A stretch of 13,406 bases of DNA. Source: a virus (Duplodnaviria > Heunggongvirae > Uroviricota > Caudoviricetes). How positions within the stretch are numbered: position 1 is the first letter of the stretch; each line of letters opens with the position of its first letter. A program made the translations under genes and the position numbers. This document shows, piece after piece, positions 8,152 to 13,125 of this stretch. Under the pieces are notes generated by a model, which made no database searches, had not been told where the DNA came from, and saw nothing but the letters and a program-made list of their open reading frames with translations. The stretch lies in the IMG/VR virus record IMGVR_UViG_2778261447_000002. One strand, written 5' to 3'.

Positions 8152-8549
8152 ACCGACATACACAAATCCGCCAGGTCGTACTGGCACGCCTTCGGGAACA
8201 GTGTGGAGACAGCGCCACTTTTTTTGACGGGCTTCCGGCATTTGTTGATGCGCAGGAACTGCCTGCCGTGGCGGTGTGGCTGAGTGATGCTCAGTACACC
8301 GGAAAAATGACGGATGAAGATGACTGGCAGGCTGTTCTGCATATTGCTGTCTTCATCCGGGCACAGGCACCGGATTCAGAGCTGGATATGTGGATGGAGA
8401 GCACCATTTTCCCGGCCCTGAATGATGTACCGGCACTTTCCGGACTCATCGATACCCTGATCCCACTCGGTTTTAACTATCAACGTGATAATGAGATGGC
8501 CACCTGGGCGATGGCGGAAATCACGTACCAGATCACGTACACGAATTAA
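8148..8549 (+). CDS. U: Tail terminator protein (lambda gpU homolog)
   Basis: Collinear with lambda U: ATFFDG, PAVAVWLSDAQYTG vs PAVAVYLTGAEYTG, WQAVLHIAVF, APDSELDMWMES vs VPDSELDAWMES, ITYQITY vs LTYVITY. ATG 8148 overlaps the Z stop (ATGA); the ORF track starts at 8136. Confidence 0.9.
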   Translation: MNRHTQIRQVVLARLREQCGDSATFFDGLPAFVDAQELPAVAVWLSDAQYTGKMTDEDDWQAVLHIAVFIRAQAPDSELDMWMESTIFPALNDVPALSGLIDTLIPLGFNYQRDNEMATWAMAEITYQITYTN

Positions 8550-8559
8550 GGAGGTGGCA

Positions 8560-9303
8560 ATGACCACACCAAATCCACTGGCAAAAACGAAAGGTGCGGG
8601 AACGACGTTCTGGATGTACACCGGCCGTGGCGATCCGTTTGCGAACCCTTTACAGGACACTGACTGGCTGCGTCTTGCGATGGTGAAGGATCTGCAACCT
8701 GGCGAAATGACCGCTGATGCAGAAGATGACACTTATCTCGATGATGAAGATGCAGACTGGAAAACAACAACCCAGGGGCAGAAATCCGTTGGTGATACTT
8801 CGGCGACGCTGGCCTGGCGTCCGGGTGACAGCGGGCAGAAAAAACTGGTTCAGTTGTTCGACTCCGGTGAAGTCTGCGCGTTTCGTATCAAATATCCCAA
8901 CGGCACTGTTGATGTTTTCCGTGGCTGGCTGAGCTCACTGGGTAAAACCATTGCCTCAAAAGACGTGATGACCCGCACCGTGAAAATCAGCGGTGTGGGG
9001 CGTCCGTATCTGGCAGAGGAAGGCACTGAAACCGTGGGCGTTACCGGGCTGACAATATCACCGGTATCTGCCAGTGTAAAAGTGGGAGCAACCACCACGC
9101 TGACCTTTACAGTAAAACCTGACGGAGCCAGTGACAAAGCGATCAGTGTGCATTCGACAGATCCACAGACTGCCACGGTGACCCTGAACGGGCTTGTGGC
9201 CACGGTGAAAGGCGTGAAGCAGGGCAGTGTCAGCATTGTGGGCATGACCGCTGACGGGAATTTTGTGGCTGTGGCTGCGGTGACTGTCAGCGCAGCAGGT
9301 TAA
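8560..9303 (+). CDS. V: Major tail protein (lambda gpV homolog) with C-terminal Ig-like domain
   Basis: Strong similarity to lambda V: [21 protein letters not shown] vs [30 protein letters not shown] identical, [18 protein letters not shown], VGRP. The C-terminal ~80 aa is Thr/Val/Ser-rich like the lambda V Ig-like (Big_2) domain. RBS AAGGAGGTGG at 8548-8557. Confidence 0.92.
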   Translation: [247 protein letters not shown]

Positions 9304-9323
9304 CAGGACGATACTCATCATTT

Positions 9324-9347
9324 GCCCCGGTTATTCGGGGCTTTTTT
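9324..9347 (+). terminator. Rho-independent terminator after the major tail gene
   Basis: GCCCCG-GTTATT-CGGGGC hairpin (6-bp G/C stem) followed by TTTTTT (9342-9347), 21 nt after the V stop. Confidence 0.7.
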
Positions 9348-9360
9348 GCAGGTGGAGAAC

Positions 9361-9750
9361 ATGATGTTTCTGAAACAGGACACGTTTAATTATGAAAAAC
9401 AGTCCGTGGTGCTCAGTGAGCTGTCCGGGCTGCAGAGAATTGAATATCTGACGTTTGTTCAGCAGCGAACGGCAAAGTTTGATGCCGGGGAGGGAGAACT
9501 GCCGGAGGCTGAACGACAGATTGCTTTTCTGCGGATGGGGATGGATATCAATGCCTGGCTGGTTTCCCGCTCACTGTGGAATGCGGAACAGTCTCAGGAT
9601 GTTGAGACGCTTTACGCATCCGTTATTACAACATGGTCGTATGATGCCCTGGGTGCGGGGGCAGAGATGGTTCTTTCGCTGAGCGGTATGGGAGCCATTG
9701 AGAATGCCGGGGATTTGGAGCATGAGGTGCTGACGCCGGAAAAGTCCTGA
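9361..9750 (+). CDS. G: Tail assembly chaperone (lambda gpG homolog)
   Basis: MFLKQDTF...LSELSGLQRIEYL parallels lambda G MFLKTESF...LSELSALQRIEHL. RBS GGTGGAG at 9351-9357. Start at 9361 or 9364 (ATGATG). Confidence 0.85.
   Translation: MMFLKQDTFNYEKQSVVLSELSGLQRIEYLTFVQQRTAKFDAGEGELPEAERQIAFLRMGMDINAWLVSRSLWNAEQSQDVETLYASVITTWSYDALGAGAEMVLSLSGMGAIENAGDLEHEVLTPEKS
9738..9744 (+). other. Candidate -1 programmed frameshift (slippery) site for G-T fusion
   Basis: Heptamer G_GAA_AAG in the G frame, 2 codons before the G stop. The -1 frame is open from 9726 onward and encodes the T-like sequence. Lambda uses G_GGA_AAG at the equivalent place. Confidence 0.6.
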
Positions 9751-10088
9751 CGCGGGAAATGCAGTTTGTCATGCGGCTTGCCCGGGAGTTCAGGCGGGCA
9801 GACTGGCGGCGGATGCTGTCGGAAATGTCGGCCACTGAGCTTGGTGAGTGGGGCGATTATTTCCGGATGCAGAGCTTCAGTGATGTGTGGATGGATGCGC
9901 AGTTTGCCTCGCTGAAGGCATTGATCGTGAGAATGGTGTCCGGCAGCAGTGATGCTGCGGTGGCTGATTTCAGCCTTTTACCGGAAGAGAACGGGATACC
10001 GGAGCGAACGGACGAAGAACTGATGCATCTTGGGGAAGGTATTTCCGGAGGTGTGCGTTATGGACCAGATAGCCAACCTGGTCATTGA
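9738..10088 (+). CDS. T: Tail assembly chaperone gpT portion (made only as G-T fusion by -1 frameshift from G)
   Basis: The -1 frame relative to G encodes ...LAREFRRADWRRMLSEMSATELGEW...DFSLLPEE...GGVRYGPD, matching lambda T (LAREMGRPDWRAMLAGMSSTEYADW...DFSLLNRR...GGVRFGPDG). There is no independent RBS. Coordinates are the shifted-frame segment from the slip site to the stop. Confidence 0.8.
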   Translation, partial: GKVLTREMQFVMRLAREFRRADWRRMLSEMSATELGEWGDYFRMQSFSDVWMDAQFASLKALIVRMVSGSSDAAVADFSLLPEENGIPERTDEELMHLGEGISGGVRYGPDSQPGH

Positions 10089-13000
10089 TTTGGGGATTGA
10101 TGCGGCAGAATTTAAAAATGAAATTCCCCGTATCAAAAACCTTCTGAATGGTGCAGCCAGCGATGCAGAACGGTCTTCTGCCCGTATGCAGCGTTTTATG
10201 GAGCGTCAGACTCAGGCCGCCCGGCAGACAACGCAGGCGGCTTCTTCGGCTGCAACAGCCGCATCCGTCCATGCGCAGACGGTGGAGAAGAACGCACAGG
10301 CTCATGAACGCATGGCCCGCGAGGTGGAGAAAACCCGCCAGCGCATGGAGGCGCTGAGCCAGAAAATGCGCGAGGAACAGGCGCAGGCCATGGCTCTGGC
10401 GGAGGCTCAGGATAAAGCGGCTGCTGCGTTTTATCGTCAGATTGACAGTGTGAAACAGGCCAGTGCGGGGCTGCAGGAATTACAGCGTATTCAGCAGCAG
10501 ATCCGACAGGCCAGAAACAGTGGCGGGATTGGTCAGCAGGATTATCTGGCGCTGATTTCTGAGGTTACTGCGAAAACCCGTGTTCTTACACAGGCTGAGG
10601 AAGAGGCTACCCGACAGAAAGTGGCGTTTATCCGTCAGCTTAAAGAGCAGGCAACCCGCCAGAATCTTTCATCTTCTGAGTTGCTTCGTGCCAAGGCAGC
10701 CCAGCTGGGGGTAAGCAGTGCTGCAGAAGTGTATATCCGCAAAATGGAGCAGGCAGGAAAAGCCACGCATTCGCTGGGTCTGAAAAGTGCAGCAGCCCGC
10801 CAGGAGATAGGCGTTCTGATAGGTGAACTGGCCCGCGGCAATTTAGGGGCGCTGAGGGGATCCGGGATAACGCTGGCTAACCGTGCCGGATGGATAGACA
10901 CACTGATGTCACCGAAAGGCATGATGCTTGGCGGGGTTATTGGCGGTATTGCCGCGGCCGTCTATGGTCTGGGTAAAGCCTGGTATGACGGTCAGAAGGA
11001 GGGGGAAGAATTTAACCGCCAGTTGTCGCTGACGGGGCATTATGCCGGAGTCACTGCCGGGCAGCTGTGGACGCTCAGTCGTGCTATTTCCGGGAATGGT
11101 ATCACGCAACATGCTGCAGCCGGTGCGCTGGCGCAGGTGGTGGGGAGTGGTGCATTTCGTGGAAACGATATCGGTATGGTGGCGAGAGCTGCCGCACAGA
11201 TGGAGCGATCGGTTGGCCAGTCGGTCAGCGATACCATAAATCAGTTTAAGCGGCTGAAGGATGATCCTGTAAATGCCGCGAAGGCTCTGGACAATGAGCT
11301 GCATTTTCTTACTGCCACTCAGCTTGAGCAGATACGTGTCCTTGGGGATCAGGGACGGTCCAGTGATGCTGCACGGATAGCCATGTCTGCACTGGCAGAG
11401 GAAACCGGTCGGCGTACTGCGGATATTGATAATAACCTCAATGCGCTTGGCAGTACGCTGAAGTATCTGTCTGATTTGTGGAGTCGTTTCTGGGATGCGG
11501 CCATGAATATTGGTCGTGAAGACTCGCTGGATGAACAGATTACCGCTTTACAGGAGAAAGTGTCGCGGGCGAAAAGACTCCCCTGGACGGCATCATCTTC
11601 TCAGGTTGAATACGATCAGCAGCGTCTTAACGATCTTCAGGAGAAAAAACGCCAGAAGGATTTGCAGGATGCAAAAGAGCAGGCAGAGCGGAATTATCAG
11701 GAGCAACAGAAACGACGTAATGCTGAAAATGCTGCACTGAACCGGATGAATGAAACGGAAGCAGCACGACATCAGCGTGAAATTGCGCGTATTAATGCCA
11801 TGCAGTACGCCGACCAGGCTGTCAGGGATGCGGCGATACAACGTGAAAATGAACGTTACGAGAAAGCCCTGGCATCCGGTAAGAAAAAAACACGCGAAAC
11901 CCGTAATGATGAGGCCACCCGGTTATTGCTGCAGTACAGTCAGCAACAGGCACAGGTGGAAGGACAGATTGCTGCTGCAAGGCAGTCAGCAGGCATTGCC
12001 ACTGAAAAGATGACAGAAGCGCATAAACAGCTTCTGGCTCTGCAGCAGCGCATCAGCGATCTGGACGGGAAAAAACTGACGGCAGATGAAAAGAGTGTGC
12101 TGGCCCGTAAAGATGAACTGATGCAGGCACTGACGCTGCTGGATGTAAAACAGCAGGAGCTTCAGAAACAAACGGCACTCAACGATCTGAAGAAAAAAAC
12201 AATTCAGCTGACCAGTCAACTGGCTGAAGAAGAGCGCGCTCAGCGTCAGCAACATGACCTGGATATCGCCACGGTGGGTATGGGTGATCAGCAGCGGCAG
12301 CGATATCAGGTACAACTGAGTCTTCGCCAGAAATACCAGCAACAGCTGGAGCAGTTGAGGCGGGATAGTGAGCAGAAAGGGACATATAACACGGATGACT
12401 ACAGAAAGGCCGAGCAGGCGCTGACGGAGAGCCTGAACCGACAACTGAATGAGAATCGCCGTTACTGGCAACAGCTTGAAGTTGTGCAGGGTAACTGGAA
12501 AAACGGAGTCCTGCGTGCATTTCAGGATTTTACCGTGGATGCAGACAATACGGCAGGAACAGCAGAACAGGTGTTCTCATCAGCCTTCAGCAACATGGGA
12601 AATGGCCTGGCAACTTTTGTCACTACCGGCAAACTCAACTTCAAATCCTTCACCTCTTCGGTGCTGTCAGATATGGCGAAAATCCTGGCGCAGGCAACCA
12701 TGATGAAATCGATAAAAGGGATTGGCAGTGTACTGGGATTTGATCTCAGCAGCCTTTCCCTGAATGCCAATGGGGGGATTTATCAGTCTGCTGATTTGAG
12801 TCGTTACAGTGGCACGGTGGTTAACCGTCCGACGTTTTTTGCTTTTGCAAAAGGGGCGGGTGTGATGGGAGAAGCGGGACCTGAAGCCATTCTGCCACTG
12901 CGTCGTGGTGCTGACGGTAAGCTGGGTGTTGTGGCACAGATTTGTGGATCAGGTATGGCGATGTTTGCCCCGCAGTACAATATCGAGATTAATAACGACG

Positions 13001-13125
13001 GCATGAACGGGCAGATAGGTCCGGCTGCCCTGAAGGTGGTTTATGACCTCGGGAAAAAAGCAGCAGCGGACTTTATGCAACAGCAGTCCCGTGATGGTGG
13101 TCTGTTCTCCGGAGGTGGACGATGA
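10060..13125 (+). CDS. H: Tail tape measure protein (lambda gpH homolog)
   Basis: About 1021 aa. N-terminus MDQIANLVIDLGIDAAEF vs lambda MAEPVGDLVVDLSLDAARF. C-terminus NNDGMNGQIGPAALKVVYDL...RDGGLFSGGGR is almost identical to lambda H. Long Gln/Ala/Glu/Arg-rich coiled-coil interior. RBS GGAGGTG at 10047-10053; the ORF track starts at an upstream TTG (10030). Confidence 0.92.
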   Translation: MDQIANLVIDLGIDAAEFKNEIPRIKNLLNGAASDAERSSARMQRFMERQTQAARQTTQAASSAATAASVHAQTVEKNAQAHERMAREVEKTRQRMEALSQKMREEQAQAMALAEAQDKAAAAFYRQIDSVKQASAGLQELQRIQQQIRQARNSGGIGQQDYLALISEVTAKTRVLTQAEEEATRQKVAFIRQLKEQATRQNLSSSELLRAKAAQLGVSSAAEVYIRKMEQAGKATHSLGLKSAAARQEIGVLIGELARGNLGALRGSGITLANRAGWIDTLMSPKGMMLGGVIGGIAAAVYGLGKAWYDGQKEGEEFNRQLSLTGHYAGVTAGQLWTLSRAISGNGITQHAAAGALAQVVGSGAFRGNDIGMVARAAAQMERSVGQSVSDTINQFKRLKDDPVNAAKALDNELHFLTATQLEQIRVLGDQGRSSDAARIAMSALAEETGRRTADIDNNLNALGSTLKYLSDLWSRFWDAAMNIGREDSLDEQITALQEKVSRAKRLPWTASSSQVEYDQQRLNDLQEKKRQKDLQDAKEQAERNYQEQQKRRNAENAALNRMNETEAARHQREIARINAMQYADQAVRDAAIQRENERYEKALASGKKKTRETRNDEATRLLLQYSQQQAQVEGQIAAARQSAGIATEKMTEAHKQLLALQQRISDLDGKKLTADEKSVLARKDELMQALTLLDVKQQELQKQTALNDLKKKTIQLTSQLAEEERAQRQQHDLDIATVGMGDQQRQRYQVQLSLRQKYQQQLEQLRRDSEQKGTYNTDDYRKAEQALTESLNRQLNENRRYWQQLEVVQGNWKNGVLRAFQDFTVDADNTAGTAEQVFSSAFSNMGNGLATFVTTGKLNFKSFTSSVLSDMAKILAQATMMKSIKGIGSVLGFDLSSLSLNANGGIYQSADLSRYSGTVVNRPTFFAFAKGAGVMGEAGPEAILPLRRGADGKLGVVAQICGSGMAMFAPQYNIEINNDGMNGQIGPAALKVVYDLGKKAAADFMQQQSRDGGLFSGGGR

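What the first reader, a model, noticed from the sequence alone, without database searches (positions are those of the whole stretch)
9726..9760. G-T frameshift site uses a variant heptamer (G_GAA_AAG) rather than lambda G_GGA_AAG
The -1 frame opens at 9726 and G stops at 9750, so recoding must occur in this 25-nt window. The only slippery-looking sequence is GGAAAAG (9738-9744), where P-site re-pairing would be GAA to GGA, an imperfect match, while the A-site Lys slip AAG to AAA is canonical. A lambda-like GGGAAAT sits 10 nt further on (9754-9760) but beyond the G stop codon, as if the slip site had drifted. Frameshift efficiency sets the G to G-T ratio needed for tail assembly.
Basis: partly seen in the sequence, partly recalled or inferred. 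Interest (0 to 1): 0.45.

Follow-up and report, generated by a model that had tools for sequence, protein, structure and literature searches.

The report
Common variant phage tail frameshift site
This is where ribosomes slip back one base to make the longer of two phage tail-assembly chaperones; its GGAAAAG slip sequence differs by one base from phage lambda's, but it is the usual and already annotated form among lambda's relatives, so the finding is correct but ordinary.

Summary
Gene G (Pfam Phage_TAC_2) ends at TGA 9748-9750. The -1 frame (Pfam Phage_tail_T) opens at 9726. The only in-phase slippery motif in the 25-nt overlap is G_GAA_AAG at 9738-9744, at the position homologous to lambda's G_GGA_AAG.

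The "drifted site" reading is wrong. In a one-genome-per-species survey, 29 of 37 sequence clusters of G/T junctions carry GGAAAAG and only 3 carry lambda's GGGAAAG. Heptamer base 1 is G in 36 of 37, although it is a third codon position of Ala, Pro, Leu, Val or Thr codons. All 90 close relatives keep the heptamer.

The N15 GenBank record marks this same heptamer as "slippery sequence for -1 translational frameshift", and the phage LLS record does likewise. The downstream GGGAAAT is just the codons Arg-Glu-Met of T. It lies past the stop, is out of phase and is not conserved.

No downstream RNA structure is supported. An SD-like GAGGTG 8 nt upstream is a possible stimulator specific to this lineage.

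This is a known variant of the lambda-type G-T frameshift. Its efficiency is unmeasured. The GT fusion is not annotated in this very common E. coli prophage lineage.

The parts
8485..9303 (+). Major tail tube protein gene (lambda V homologue) just upstream. The listed ORF starts at GTG 8485. The start annotated in relatives corresponds to about 8560.
   Evidence: Pfam Phage_TTP_12 4.4e-66 plus Big_2. Annotated as major tail protein in mEp460, cdtI and Ayreon.
9364..9750 (+). Gene G, the tail assembly chaperone (128 aa; an alternative ATG at 9361 gives 129 aa). Stop TGA at 9748-9750.
   Evidence: Translation. Pfam Phage_TAC_2 1.6e-40. PGAP calls it 'phage tail assembly chaperone G' at the equivalent coordinates.
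9724..9729 (+). SD-like GAGGTG, 8 nt upstream of the heptamer. It is a candidate upstream stimulator (inferred, specific to this lineage). It also encodes Glu-Val of G.
   Evidence: Duplex with the anti-SD is -9.2 kcal/mol for TGAGGTGC, in the top 2% of 8-mers of the G ORF. GAGG is kept in close relatives (GAGGTG or GAGGCG). It is absent from phi80, N15 and LLS.
9738..9744 (+). The -1 slip site G_GAA_AAG. Glu and Lys are decoded in the G frame, and the next codon read is GTC (9744-9746) in the T frame.
   Evidence: Homologous to lambda G_GGA_AAG. Invariant in 90 close relatives. Present in 29 of 37 divergent clusters. The same heptamer is annotated as the slippery sequence in N15 and LLS.
9744..10088 (+). 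T segment, read in the -1 frame (114 aa plus stop). The frame is open from 9726. The predicted GT fusion is 241 aa (242 from the ATG at 9361).
   Evidence: Translation. Pfam Phage_tail_T 5.1e-15. T-frame conservation continues upstream of ATG 9759 to the heptamer.
10060..13125 (+). Tape measure protein gene (lambda H homologue) just downstream, overlapping the end of T.
   Evidence: Pfam TMP_2 2.7e-49 and Tape_meas_lam_C 3.2e-22. Annotated starts in relatives.

Best explanation
This is the lambda-type G-T programmed -1 ribosomal frameshift of a lambdoid E. coli prophage related to mEp460 and cdtI.

Most ribosomes read G to the TGA at 9748-9750 and make gpG (128 aa). A minority slip back one base on G_GAA_AAG (9738-9744) and continue in the T frame to 10088. 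That gives a GT fusion of about 241 aa with the junction ...LTPEK|VLTREMQF....

Shown here:
- The gene order V-G-T-H.
- The two frames and the 25-nt overlap.
- The single in-phase slip motif.
- Its homology in position to lambda's site.
- Strong conservation at the nucleotide level.

Inferred:
- tRNA-Lys moves from AAG to AAA, which is the favourable move in E. coli.
- tRNA-Glu re-pairs from GAA to GGA. It keeps the first and third pairs and has a G.U at the middle position.
- The site therefore acts as a near-cognate heptamer G_GNA_AAG rather than a canonical X_XXY_YYZ.
- Efficiency is probably a few per cent, with no downstream RNA structure.
- In this lineage the SD-like GAGGTG 8 nt upstream may help.
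For: - Frames, stops and heptamer.
- Pfam: G is Phage_TAC_2 (1.6e-40) and T is Phage_tail_T (5.1e-15), flanked by the tail tube and tape measure genes.
- The slip-site Lys aligns with lambda's in the T-frame alignment, and an invariant Glu lies upstream of the ATG.
- Survey of one genome per species: GGAAAAG 29, GGGAAAG 3, GGCAAAA 2, AGAAAAG 1, GGTAAAG 1, GGGAAAA 1 out of 37 clusters. Heptamer positions 4-6 are AAA in 37 of 37. Position 1 is G in 36 of 37.
- The codon before the heptamer is GCG, CCG, CTG, GTG, TTG or ACG, while third-position G in these G genes is only 32.5%. If the clusters were independent the binomial probability would be about 1e-16.
- 90 of 90 close relatives keep the heptamer, and positions -8 to +9 are invariant, while the G tail upstream varies.
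- Plaque-forming phages with the same heptamer include mEp460, cdtI, Ayreon, phi80, N15, Gifsy-2 and LLS.
- The N15 and LLS records annotate GGAAAAG as the -1 slippery site. The Gifsy-2 record calls T part of a frameshift hybrid.
- A_AAG is the most shift-prone tetramer in E. coli (Sharma et al. 2014, PMC4066793).
- Natural NNA_AAG sites such as IS1222 G_CGA_AAG are used productively (Atkins et al. 2016, PMC5009743).
Against: - No frameshift product or efficiency has been measured for this heptamer in any phage that I could find.
- In a reconstituted E. coli system, G GAA AAG gave mainly 0-frame product. The authors treat it as a one-tRNA, 'less slippery' site (PMC6924986).
- A_AAG without a stimulator was near background in vivo, and reached 5.6% only with the IS3 pseudoknot (PMC4066793).
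- I found no significant downstream structure: z = -1.2 and -0.96, and the consensus fold was -1.5 kcal/mol with no covariation.
- The SD-like element is not shared by phi80, N15 or LLS.
- Heptamer position 3 varies (A, G, C or T). Exact P-site re-pairing is therefore not essential.
Confidence: 0.85

Rival explanations
1. The site and product are the same, but the slip is a pure single-tRNA event on A_AAG (hexanucleotide GAA_AAG). Only tRNA-Lys re-pairs. The tRNA-Glu contributes only by freeing the third base A, and the G at heptamer position 1 is irrelevant.
For: [quoted passage not shown]
- Hexanucleotide NNA_AAG sites are known (IS1222, B. subtilis cdd). Their efficiency tracks the wobble propensity of the tRNA on the 5' codon.
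- Heptamer position 3 varies among relatives.
Against: - Position 1 G is kept in 36 of 37 clusters at a synonymous site, across six different preceding codons. That is unexpected if P-site first-base re-pairing did not matter.
- Position 2 is G in 37 of 37 clusters. The P-site codon is always GNA, even though the amino acid changes among Glu, Gly, Ala and Val.
Confidence: 0.3
2. T is translated on its own from ATG 9759, as annotated by PGAP and in the mEp460 and cdtI records. No frameshift is needed.
For: - An ATG exists at 9759.
- The 109-aa stand-alone T is the annotated product on at least 1000 contigs.
Against: - The ATG is specific to this lineage. Relatives have a Leu or other codon there.
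- The only purine-rich stretch upstream (GGGA, 9754-9757) ends 1 nt before the ATG, too close for a Shine-Dalgarno.
- T-frame conservation (K-[VA]-L-x-x-E) continues from the ATG back to the heptamer.
- From established knowledge: in lambda, T sequence is made only as the GT fusion and needs the G part to bind the tape measure (Levin et al. 1993; Xu et al. 2013 and 2014, as summarised in PMC5009743).
Confidence: 0.07
3. The slip site has decayed. The true or ancestral site is the lambda-like GGGAAAT at 9754-9760, or the prophage no longer makes GT.
For: Only the resemblance of GGGAAAT to GGGAAAG.
Against: - GGGAAAT lies after the G stop. In the G frame it would be GGG_AAA_T, which is the wrong phase.
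- It encodes Arg-Glu-Met of T and is absent from Gifsy-2 and other relatives.
- Viable phages carry the same GGAAAAG junction.
- The heptamer is invariant in 90 relatives.
Confidence: 0.02

Closest known systems
Bacteriophage lambda G / G-T -1 programmed frameshift (G_GGA_AAG)
   Same: - Same gene order V-G-T-H and the same Pfam families for G and T.
- The slip is at the homologous Lys codon a few codons before the G stop.
- The T-frame sequence after the slip is the same type (K-V-x-x-x-E-x-x-F...LAREx-R-DW).
- No conserved downstream structure.
   Different: - One base differs: heptamer position 3 is A, not G. The P-site codon is therefore GAA (Glu) instead of GGA (Gly).
- Re-pairing in the -1 frame has a middle-position G.U rather than a third-position wobble.
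- The site does not fit X_XXY_YYZ.
- T identity to lambda is only about 37%.
- The G stop is 1 codon after the heptamer here and 5 codons after it in lambda.
Phage N15 genes 14/15, with the same type in phi80 and LLS, and Gifsy-2 G/T
   Same: - The heptamer GGAAAAG is identical and in the same phase and position.
- The N15 record marks it as 'slippery sequence for -1 translational frameshift'.
- The LLS record marks it as 'minus-one programmed translational frameshift site GGAAAAG'.
- Gifsy-2 shares the local string ACGCCGGAAAAGTCCTGA and is annotated as a frameshift hybrid.
   Different: - The proteins are divergent. T identity is 42% to phi80 and LLS and 52% to Gifsy-2.
- In N15, phi80 and LLS the G stop lies 5 codons after the heptamer, and there is no SD-like element upstream.
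- In the window's own lineage the fusion is not annotated.
Hexanucleotide or tetranucleotide A_AAG frameshift sites (IS1222 G_CGA_AAG, B. subtilis cdd A_CGA_AAG)
   Same: The -1 shift is driven by tRNA-Lys moving from AAG to AAA, with a 5' codon that cannot re-pair cognately. Output is low.
   Different: - IS1222 relies on a downstream stimulator and on an inosine-containing tRNA-Arg.
- Here the 5' codon is GAA preceded by a conserved G, which allows two Watson-Crick pairs plus a G.U.
- No structure was found here.
E. coli dnaX frameshift (A_AAA_AAG with an upstream SD-like element and a downstream hairpin)
   Same: The A-site codon AAG is the same, and there is an SD-like sequence a short distance upstream of the slip site. 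In the window this is GAGGTG, 8 nt upstream.
   Different: - dnaX has a canonical heptamer, a strong hairpin and an efficiency of 50-80%.
- Here there is no hairpin, and the SD-like element is untested and specific to this lineage.

Membership tests
Tail assembly chaperone G/GT -1 frameshift of long-tailed phages (Levin 1993; Xu, Hendrix and Duda 2004) | Two overlapping ORFs lying between the major tail protein gene and the tape measure gene | tested here: met
   V (Phage_TTP_12), then G, then T, then H (TMP_2, Tape_meas_lam_C)..
Tail assembly chaperone G/GT -1 frameshift of long-tailed phages (Levin 1993; Xu, Hendrix and Duda 2004) | The second ORF is in the -1 frame relative to the first and overlaps its 3' end | tested here: met
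   The G frame has codon starts at positions of the form 3n+1 and the T frame at 3n. The overlap is 9726-9750.
Tail assembly chaperone G/GT -1 frameshift of long-tailed phages (Levin 1993; Xu, Hendrix and Duda 2004) | A slippery sequence in the correct phase inside the overlap | tested here: met
   G_GAA_AAG at 9738-9744. It contains the in-phase tetramer A_AAG and is conserved across the family.
Tail assembly chaperone G/GT -1 frameshift of long-tailed phages (Levin 1993; Xu, Hendrix and Duda 2004) | Sequence homology to lambda gpG and gpT | tested here: met
   Pfam PF06894 at 1.6e-40 and PF06223 at 5.1e-15. Alignment with lambda T.
Tail assembly chaperone G/GT -1 frameshift of long-tailed phages (Levin 1993; Xu, Hendrix and Duda 2004) | The downstream ORF lacks its own conserved start codon and ribosome-binding site | tested here: met
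   ATG 9759 is specific to this lineage and has no properly spaced SD. T-frame conservation extends upstream of it.
Tail assembly chaperone G/GT -1 frameshift of long-tailed phages (Levin 1993; Xu, Hendrix and Duda 2004) | The fusion protein GT is actually made, at a small fraction of G, and is required for tail assembly | not testable with these tools
   This needs a reporter assay, western blot or mass spectrometry, and genetics.
Canonical tandem-slippage heptamer X_XXY_YYZ | Positions 1-3 are identical and positions 4-6 are identical, so that both tRNAs re-pair at the first two anticodon positions | tested here: not met
   Positions 1-3 are G, G, A. Re-pairing of tRNA-Glu on GGA has a second-position mismatch (PMC6924986). 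Positions 4-7 (A_AAG) do fit.
Z_ZZN tetramer / NNA_AAG hexanucleotide -1 sites | An in-phase A_AAG with a non-repairing 5' codon | tested here: met
   GAA_AAG is in the G frame. The definition of the class is given in PMC4066793 and PMC5009743.
Z_ZZN tetramer / NNA_AAG hexanucleotide -1 sites | Dependence on a downstream structured stimulator, as in IS3 and IS1222 | tested here: not met
   No significant fold (z = -1.2 and -0.96). No conserved or covarying structure in 24 relatives.

The most novel reading that the evidence does not exclude
G_GAA_AAG, not lambda's canonical G_GGA_AAG, is the ancestral and predominant G-T slip site of lambda-like phages of Enterobacterales. It works as a true two-tRNA site, with tRNA-Glu tolerating a middle-position G.U in the P site. 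It delivers lambda-like efficiency in vivo, even though it was 'less slippery' in a reconstituted system. That would imply an unrecognised stimulator, such as the SD-like element, the conserved E-x-[VL]-[TS]-x-E-K nascent peptide or its mRNA context. It would also extend the rules used by motif-based frameshift finders, which at present miss this site in about a third of complete E. coli genomes.
Probability: 0.3. Interest if true: 0.45.

Novelty: already known. Interest (0 to 1): 0.22.

Why it matters
For phage biology this is ordinary. It is the expected G-T frameshift, and the heptamer variant was already marked in the N15 record and again in LLS.

There are two modest practical points.

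1. This G-T module is in 1847 of 5426 complete E. coli genomes. Yet RefSeq/PGAP and most phage records annotate T as a stand-alone 109-aa protein. The predicted GT fusion is absent from a 15-billion-protein collection. That is a systematic annotation gap. Searches restricted to X_XXY_YYZ motifs, such as the design of Sharma et al. 2014, would not pick this site up.

2. The site is a natural, strongly conserved test case for P-site second-position G.U re-pairing. Bock et al. 2019 say explicitly that their frameshift free-energy model has not covered this situation.

Tried and rejected
- **Downstream stimulatory structure.** Folding 9745-9830 and 9700-9860 gave z-scores of -1.2 and -0.96. RNAalifold on 24 GGAAAAG-type relatives gave 4 invariant pairs, -1.5 kcal/mol and no covariation. 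Rejected.
- **Universal upstream SD-like stimulator.** It is strong in the window (-9.2 kcal/mol), in Sodalis, in Symbiopectobacterium and in the Pantoea G_GTA_AAG clade. It is absent from phi80, N15, LLS and many others. It is kept only as a possibility specific to this lineage.
- **Transcriptional slippage.** The A run is only 4 bases. From general knowledge, known cases need about 7 or more. Rejected.
- **GGGAAAT at 9754-9760 as a slip site.** Rejected on phase, position after the stop and lack of conservation.
- **Literature.** Full-text searches for GGAAAAG / G_GAA_AAG with phage, tail or frameshift terms found nothing on phages. The only relevant hit was the Rodnina-lab in vitro paper. 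Xu et al. 2004 (PMID 15469818) and Licznar et al. 2003 are not held. I therefore could not check whether they list or measure this heptamer.
- **Exact look-up of the predicted GT fusion (241 and 242 aa).** Not in the collection.
- **Bare-string enrichment of GGAAAAG in the window.** None: 3 matches against 2.4 expected.

Full report
**What the window is.** The 13.4-kb window is the morphogenesis block of a lambdoid E. coli prophage. The stretch 9300-10100 is 97-99% identical to phages 500465-3, phi458, Ayreon, mEp460 and cdtI. It is 100% identical to a prophage of E. coli strain Ch1. Pfam gives terminase gpA, a lambda-family portal, a ClpP-capsid fusion, a cement protein, then Z, U, V (tail tube), G (Phage_TAC_2, 1.6e-40), T (Phage_tail_T, 5.1e-15) and the tape measure H. 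The finding therefore sits at the classical G/T junction.

**Checking the observation.**
- The G frame reads ...CAT GAG GTG CTG ACG CCG GAA AAG TCC TGA, with the stop at 9748-9750.
- The -1 frame has TGA at 9723-9725 and is then open from 9726 to 10088.
- Within the 25-nt overlap the only in-phase shift-prone motif is A_AAG, embedded in G_GAA_AAG at 9738-9744. There is no canonical X_XXY_YYZ heptamer.
- GGGAAAT is at 9754-9760.
- As a bare string GGAAAAG is not enriched (3 copies against 2.4 expected). The other two copies are in the phase GGA_AAA_G. The case rests on position, phase and conservation.

**Homology of the site.** I anchored on the Lys codon and translated the -1 frame. This gives KVLTREMQFVMRLAREFRRADW here, KVFDGELSFALKLAREMGRPDW in lambda, KALASELKFVLNLAREFGRPDW in phi80 and KVLNNELHFVRQLAREFRRPDW in Gifsy-2. 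The slip site is thus at exactly the homologous codon pair: Glu-Lys here and Gly-Lys in lambda. The heptamers differ by one transition at position 3.

**The variant is the rule, not a drifted exception.**
- A T-profile scan of one genome per species returned 78 loci. After I removed lambda contaminants and clustered the junctions at 90% identity, 37 clusters remained. They split as GGAAAAG 29, GGGAAAG 3, GGCAAAA 2, AGAAAAG 1, GGTAAAG 1 and GGGAAAA 1.
- Positions 4-6 are AAA in 37 of 37 clusters and position 2 is G in 37 of 37.
- Position 1 is G in 36 of 37, although it is the third base of the preceding codon. Among the GGAAAAG clusters that codon is GCG, CCG, CTG, GTG, TTG or ACG. Third-position G in these G genes is 32.5%. 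If the clusters were independent, the binomial probability would be about 1e-16. They are not fully independent, but at least five different amino acids keep G there. This is selection at the nucleotide level on the heptamer.
- In 90 close relatives the heptamer is invariant, and positions -8 to +9 do not vary, while the G tail just upstream is polymorphic.
- A rough NJ tree of T places lambda and E. albertii (GGGAAAG) nested among GGAAAAG lineages. Edwardsiella appears as a separate GGGAAAG lineage. Lambda's canonical heptamer therefore looks derived.

**The variant is already annotated.**
- The N15 record carries a misc_feature 'slippery sequence for -1 translational frameshift' whose seven bases are GGAAAAG.
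- Phage LLS carries 'minus-one programmed translational frameshift site GGAAAAG' together with a joined CDS.
- Gifsy-2 shares ACGCCGGAAAAGTCCTGA with the window, and its T is annotated as part of a frameshift hybrid protein.
- In the window's own lineage, by contrast, G and T are annotated as separate genes. This holds in mEp460, cdtI, Ayreon and PGAP.
- The stand-alone 109-aa T is recorded on at least 1000 contigs, and the predicted 241/242-aa fusion is absent from the 15-billion-protein collection.
- The module occurs in 1847 of 5426 complete E. coli genomes.

**The GGGAAAT decoy.** In the T frame it is CGG GAA ATG (Arg-Glu-Met), and the Glu is the conserved residue of T. It lies after the G stop. 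In the G frame it would be GGG_AAA_T, the wrong phase for a -1 tandem slip. It is absent from Gifsy-2 and from most relatives. It is a coding coincidence.

**Mechanism.**
- Shown here: the frames, the motif, the positional homology and the conservation.
- Inferred: tRNA-Lys shifts from AAG to AAA. A_AAG is by far the best tetramer in E. coli, reaching 5.6% with the IS3 pseudoknot but staying near background alone (PMC4066793).
- Inferred: tRNA-Glu would re-pair from GAA to GGA with a middle-position G.U. Peng et al. 2019 used G GAA AAG as their 'less slippery' control and saw mainly 0-frame product with wild-type EF-G (PMC6924986).
- The conserved G at positions 1 and 2, and the pattern G_GNA_AAG (N = A, G, C or T), argue that first-base P-site re-pairing matters. 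I therefore favour a near-cognate two-tRNA slip over a pure single-tRNA slip. The latter, known for the NNA_AAG sites of IS1222 and cdd (PMC5009743), remains a live alternative.
- I extrapolated from the parameters of Bock et al. 2019: +5.1 kJ/mol for an A.U to G.U change (measured at a first position) and -2.9 kJ/mol for the A-site wobble change. The equilibrium penalty relative to lambda's heptamer could then be small. That paper states, however, that second-position changes were not in its data set (PMC6787027). This is an extrapolation, not a result.

**Stimulators.**
- No downstream structure is supported: z = -1.2 and -0.96, and the consensus fold across 24 relatives is -1.5 kcal/mol with no covariation.
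- Upstream, the window has GAGGTG at 9724-9729, 8 nt before the heptamer. The anti-SD duplex is -9.2 kcal/mol, in the top 2% of 8-mers of the G ORF. This falls within the 6-17 nt range that Sharma et al. searched for SD-like stimulators.
- GAGG is kept in close relatives and in Gifsy-2. It is absent from phi80, N15 and LLS, which use the same heptamer. It is therefore at most a helper specific to this lineage.
- The 0-frame stop lies one codon after the heptamer here. It lies directly after it in the Proteus, Providencia and Morganella relatives, and five codons after it in the phi80 type and in lambda.

**Independent initiation of T.** This is unlikely. ATG 9759 is specific to this lineage, it has no properly spaced SD, and T-frame conservation runs upstream of it to the heptamer.

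**Verdict.** The core interpretation (slip site, junction, imperfect P-site re-pairing) is right. The 'drift' narrative is wrong. The feature is a known, widespread variant of the lambda-type G-T frameshift. The residual interest is that its efficiency and tRNA mechanics appear unmeasured, and that it is systematically left un-annotated in a very common E. coli prophage lineage.

Noticed in passing
window 9324-9347 (+): There is a terminator-like hairpin, GCCCCGGTTATTCGGGGC followed by TTTTTT, between the tail tube gene V and G. The mEp460 and Ayreon records annotate a terminator here, and N15 has a 'putative rho-indep. transcription terminator' in the same V-G gap. It could lower transcription of G-T-H relative to V.
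   Followed up: partly
window 4501-6720 (+): A single 739-aa ORF combines a ClpP protease domain (3.3e-36) with a phage capsid domain (Phage_capsid_4, 2.3e-54). This is a protease-capsid fusion, unlike lambda's separate C, Nu3 and E genes.
   Followed up: no
window 6762-7277 (+): A head cement or decoration protein (Phage_cement_2, 9e-21) carries a C-terminal collagen-like triple-helix repeat (1.9e-07).
   Followed up: no
window 426-935 (+): The ORF in the small-terminase position, upstream of gpA, matches only DUF1441 (2.2e-44).
   Followed up: no
L053, L055, L056, L073 (Pantoea prophages), junction at about locus 1186-1192: This clade uses G_GTA_AAG, where P-site re-pairing from GUA to GGU is poorer. 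It has a conserved strong SD-like GGGGAGGA or AGGGAGGA about 9 nt upstream (-10.9 kcal/mol, stronger than any 8-mer in its G ORF). This may be a compensating stimulator.
   Followed up: partly
L016, L018, L020, L024, L028-L030, L036, L054, L074 (Kluyvera, Ewingella, Morganella, Proteus, Providencia): In these relatives the 0-frame stop codon directly follows the heptamer: GGAAAAG-TAG, GGCAAAA-TAG, AGAAAAG-TAA and GGGAAAA-TAG. This is a 'shifty stop' arrangement, different from both the window and lambda.
   Followed up: no
L059-L064, L067, L068, L070 (genome-contig hits): Short, low-coverage contigs occur in assemblies of unrelated organisms (Neobacillus, Oceanobacillus, Kitasatospora, Chromatium, Shewanella, Pseudomonas, Leeuwenhoekiella). 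They are 100% identical to lambda over the 540 nt of the G-T region that I compared. This is almost certainly lambda DNA contamination of those assemblies.
   Followed up: yes
window 9759-10088 (+), and databases: T is annotated as a stand-alone 109-aa protein on at least 1000 contigs, and by PGAP. The predicted GT fusion of this lineage is absent from the 15-billion-protein collection. This is a systematic annotation gap for a prophage module found in 34% of complete E. coli genomes.
   Followed up: yes
window 9724-9744 and homologous junctions (table, positions -13 to 7): The last residues of G before the slip form a conserved motif, E-x-[VL]-[TS]-x-[EG]-K. The Glu codon at -13 to -11 is conserved in 33 of 37 clusters and the C at -3 in 31 of 37, although the rest of the G tail is variable. 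I could not tell whether this reflects protein function, a nascent-peptide effect or mRNA context.
   Followed up: no
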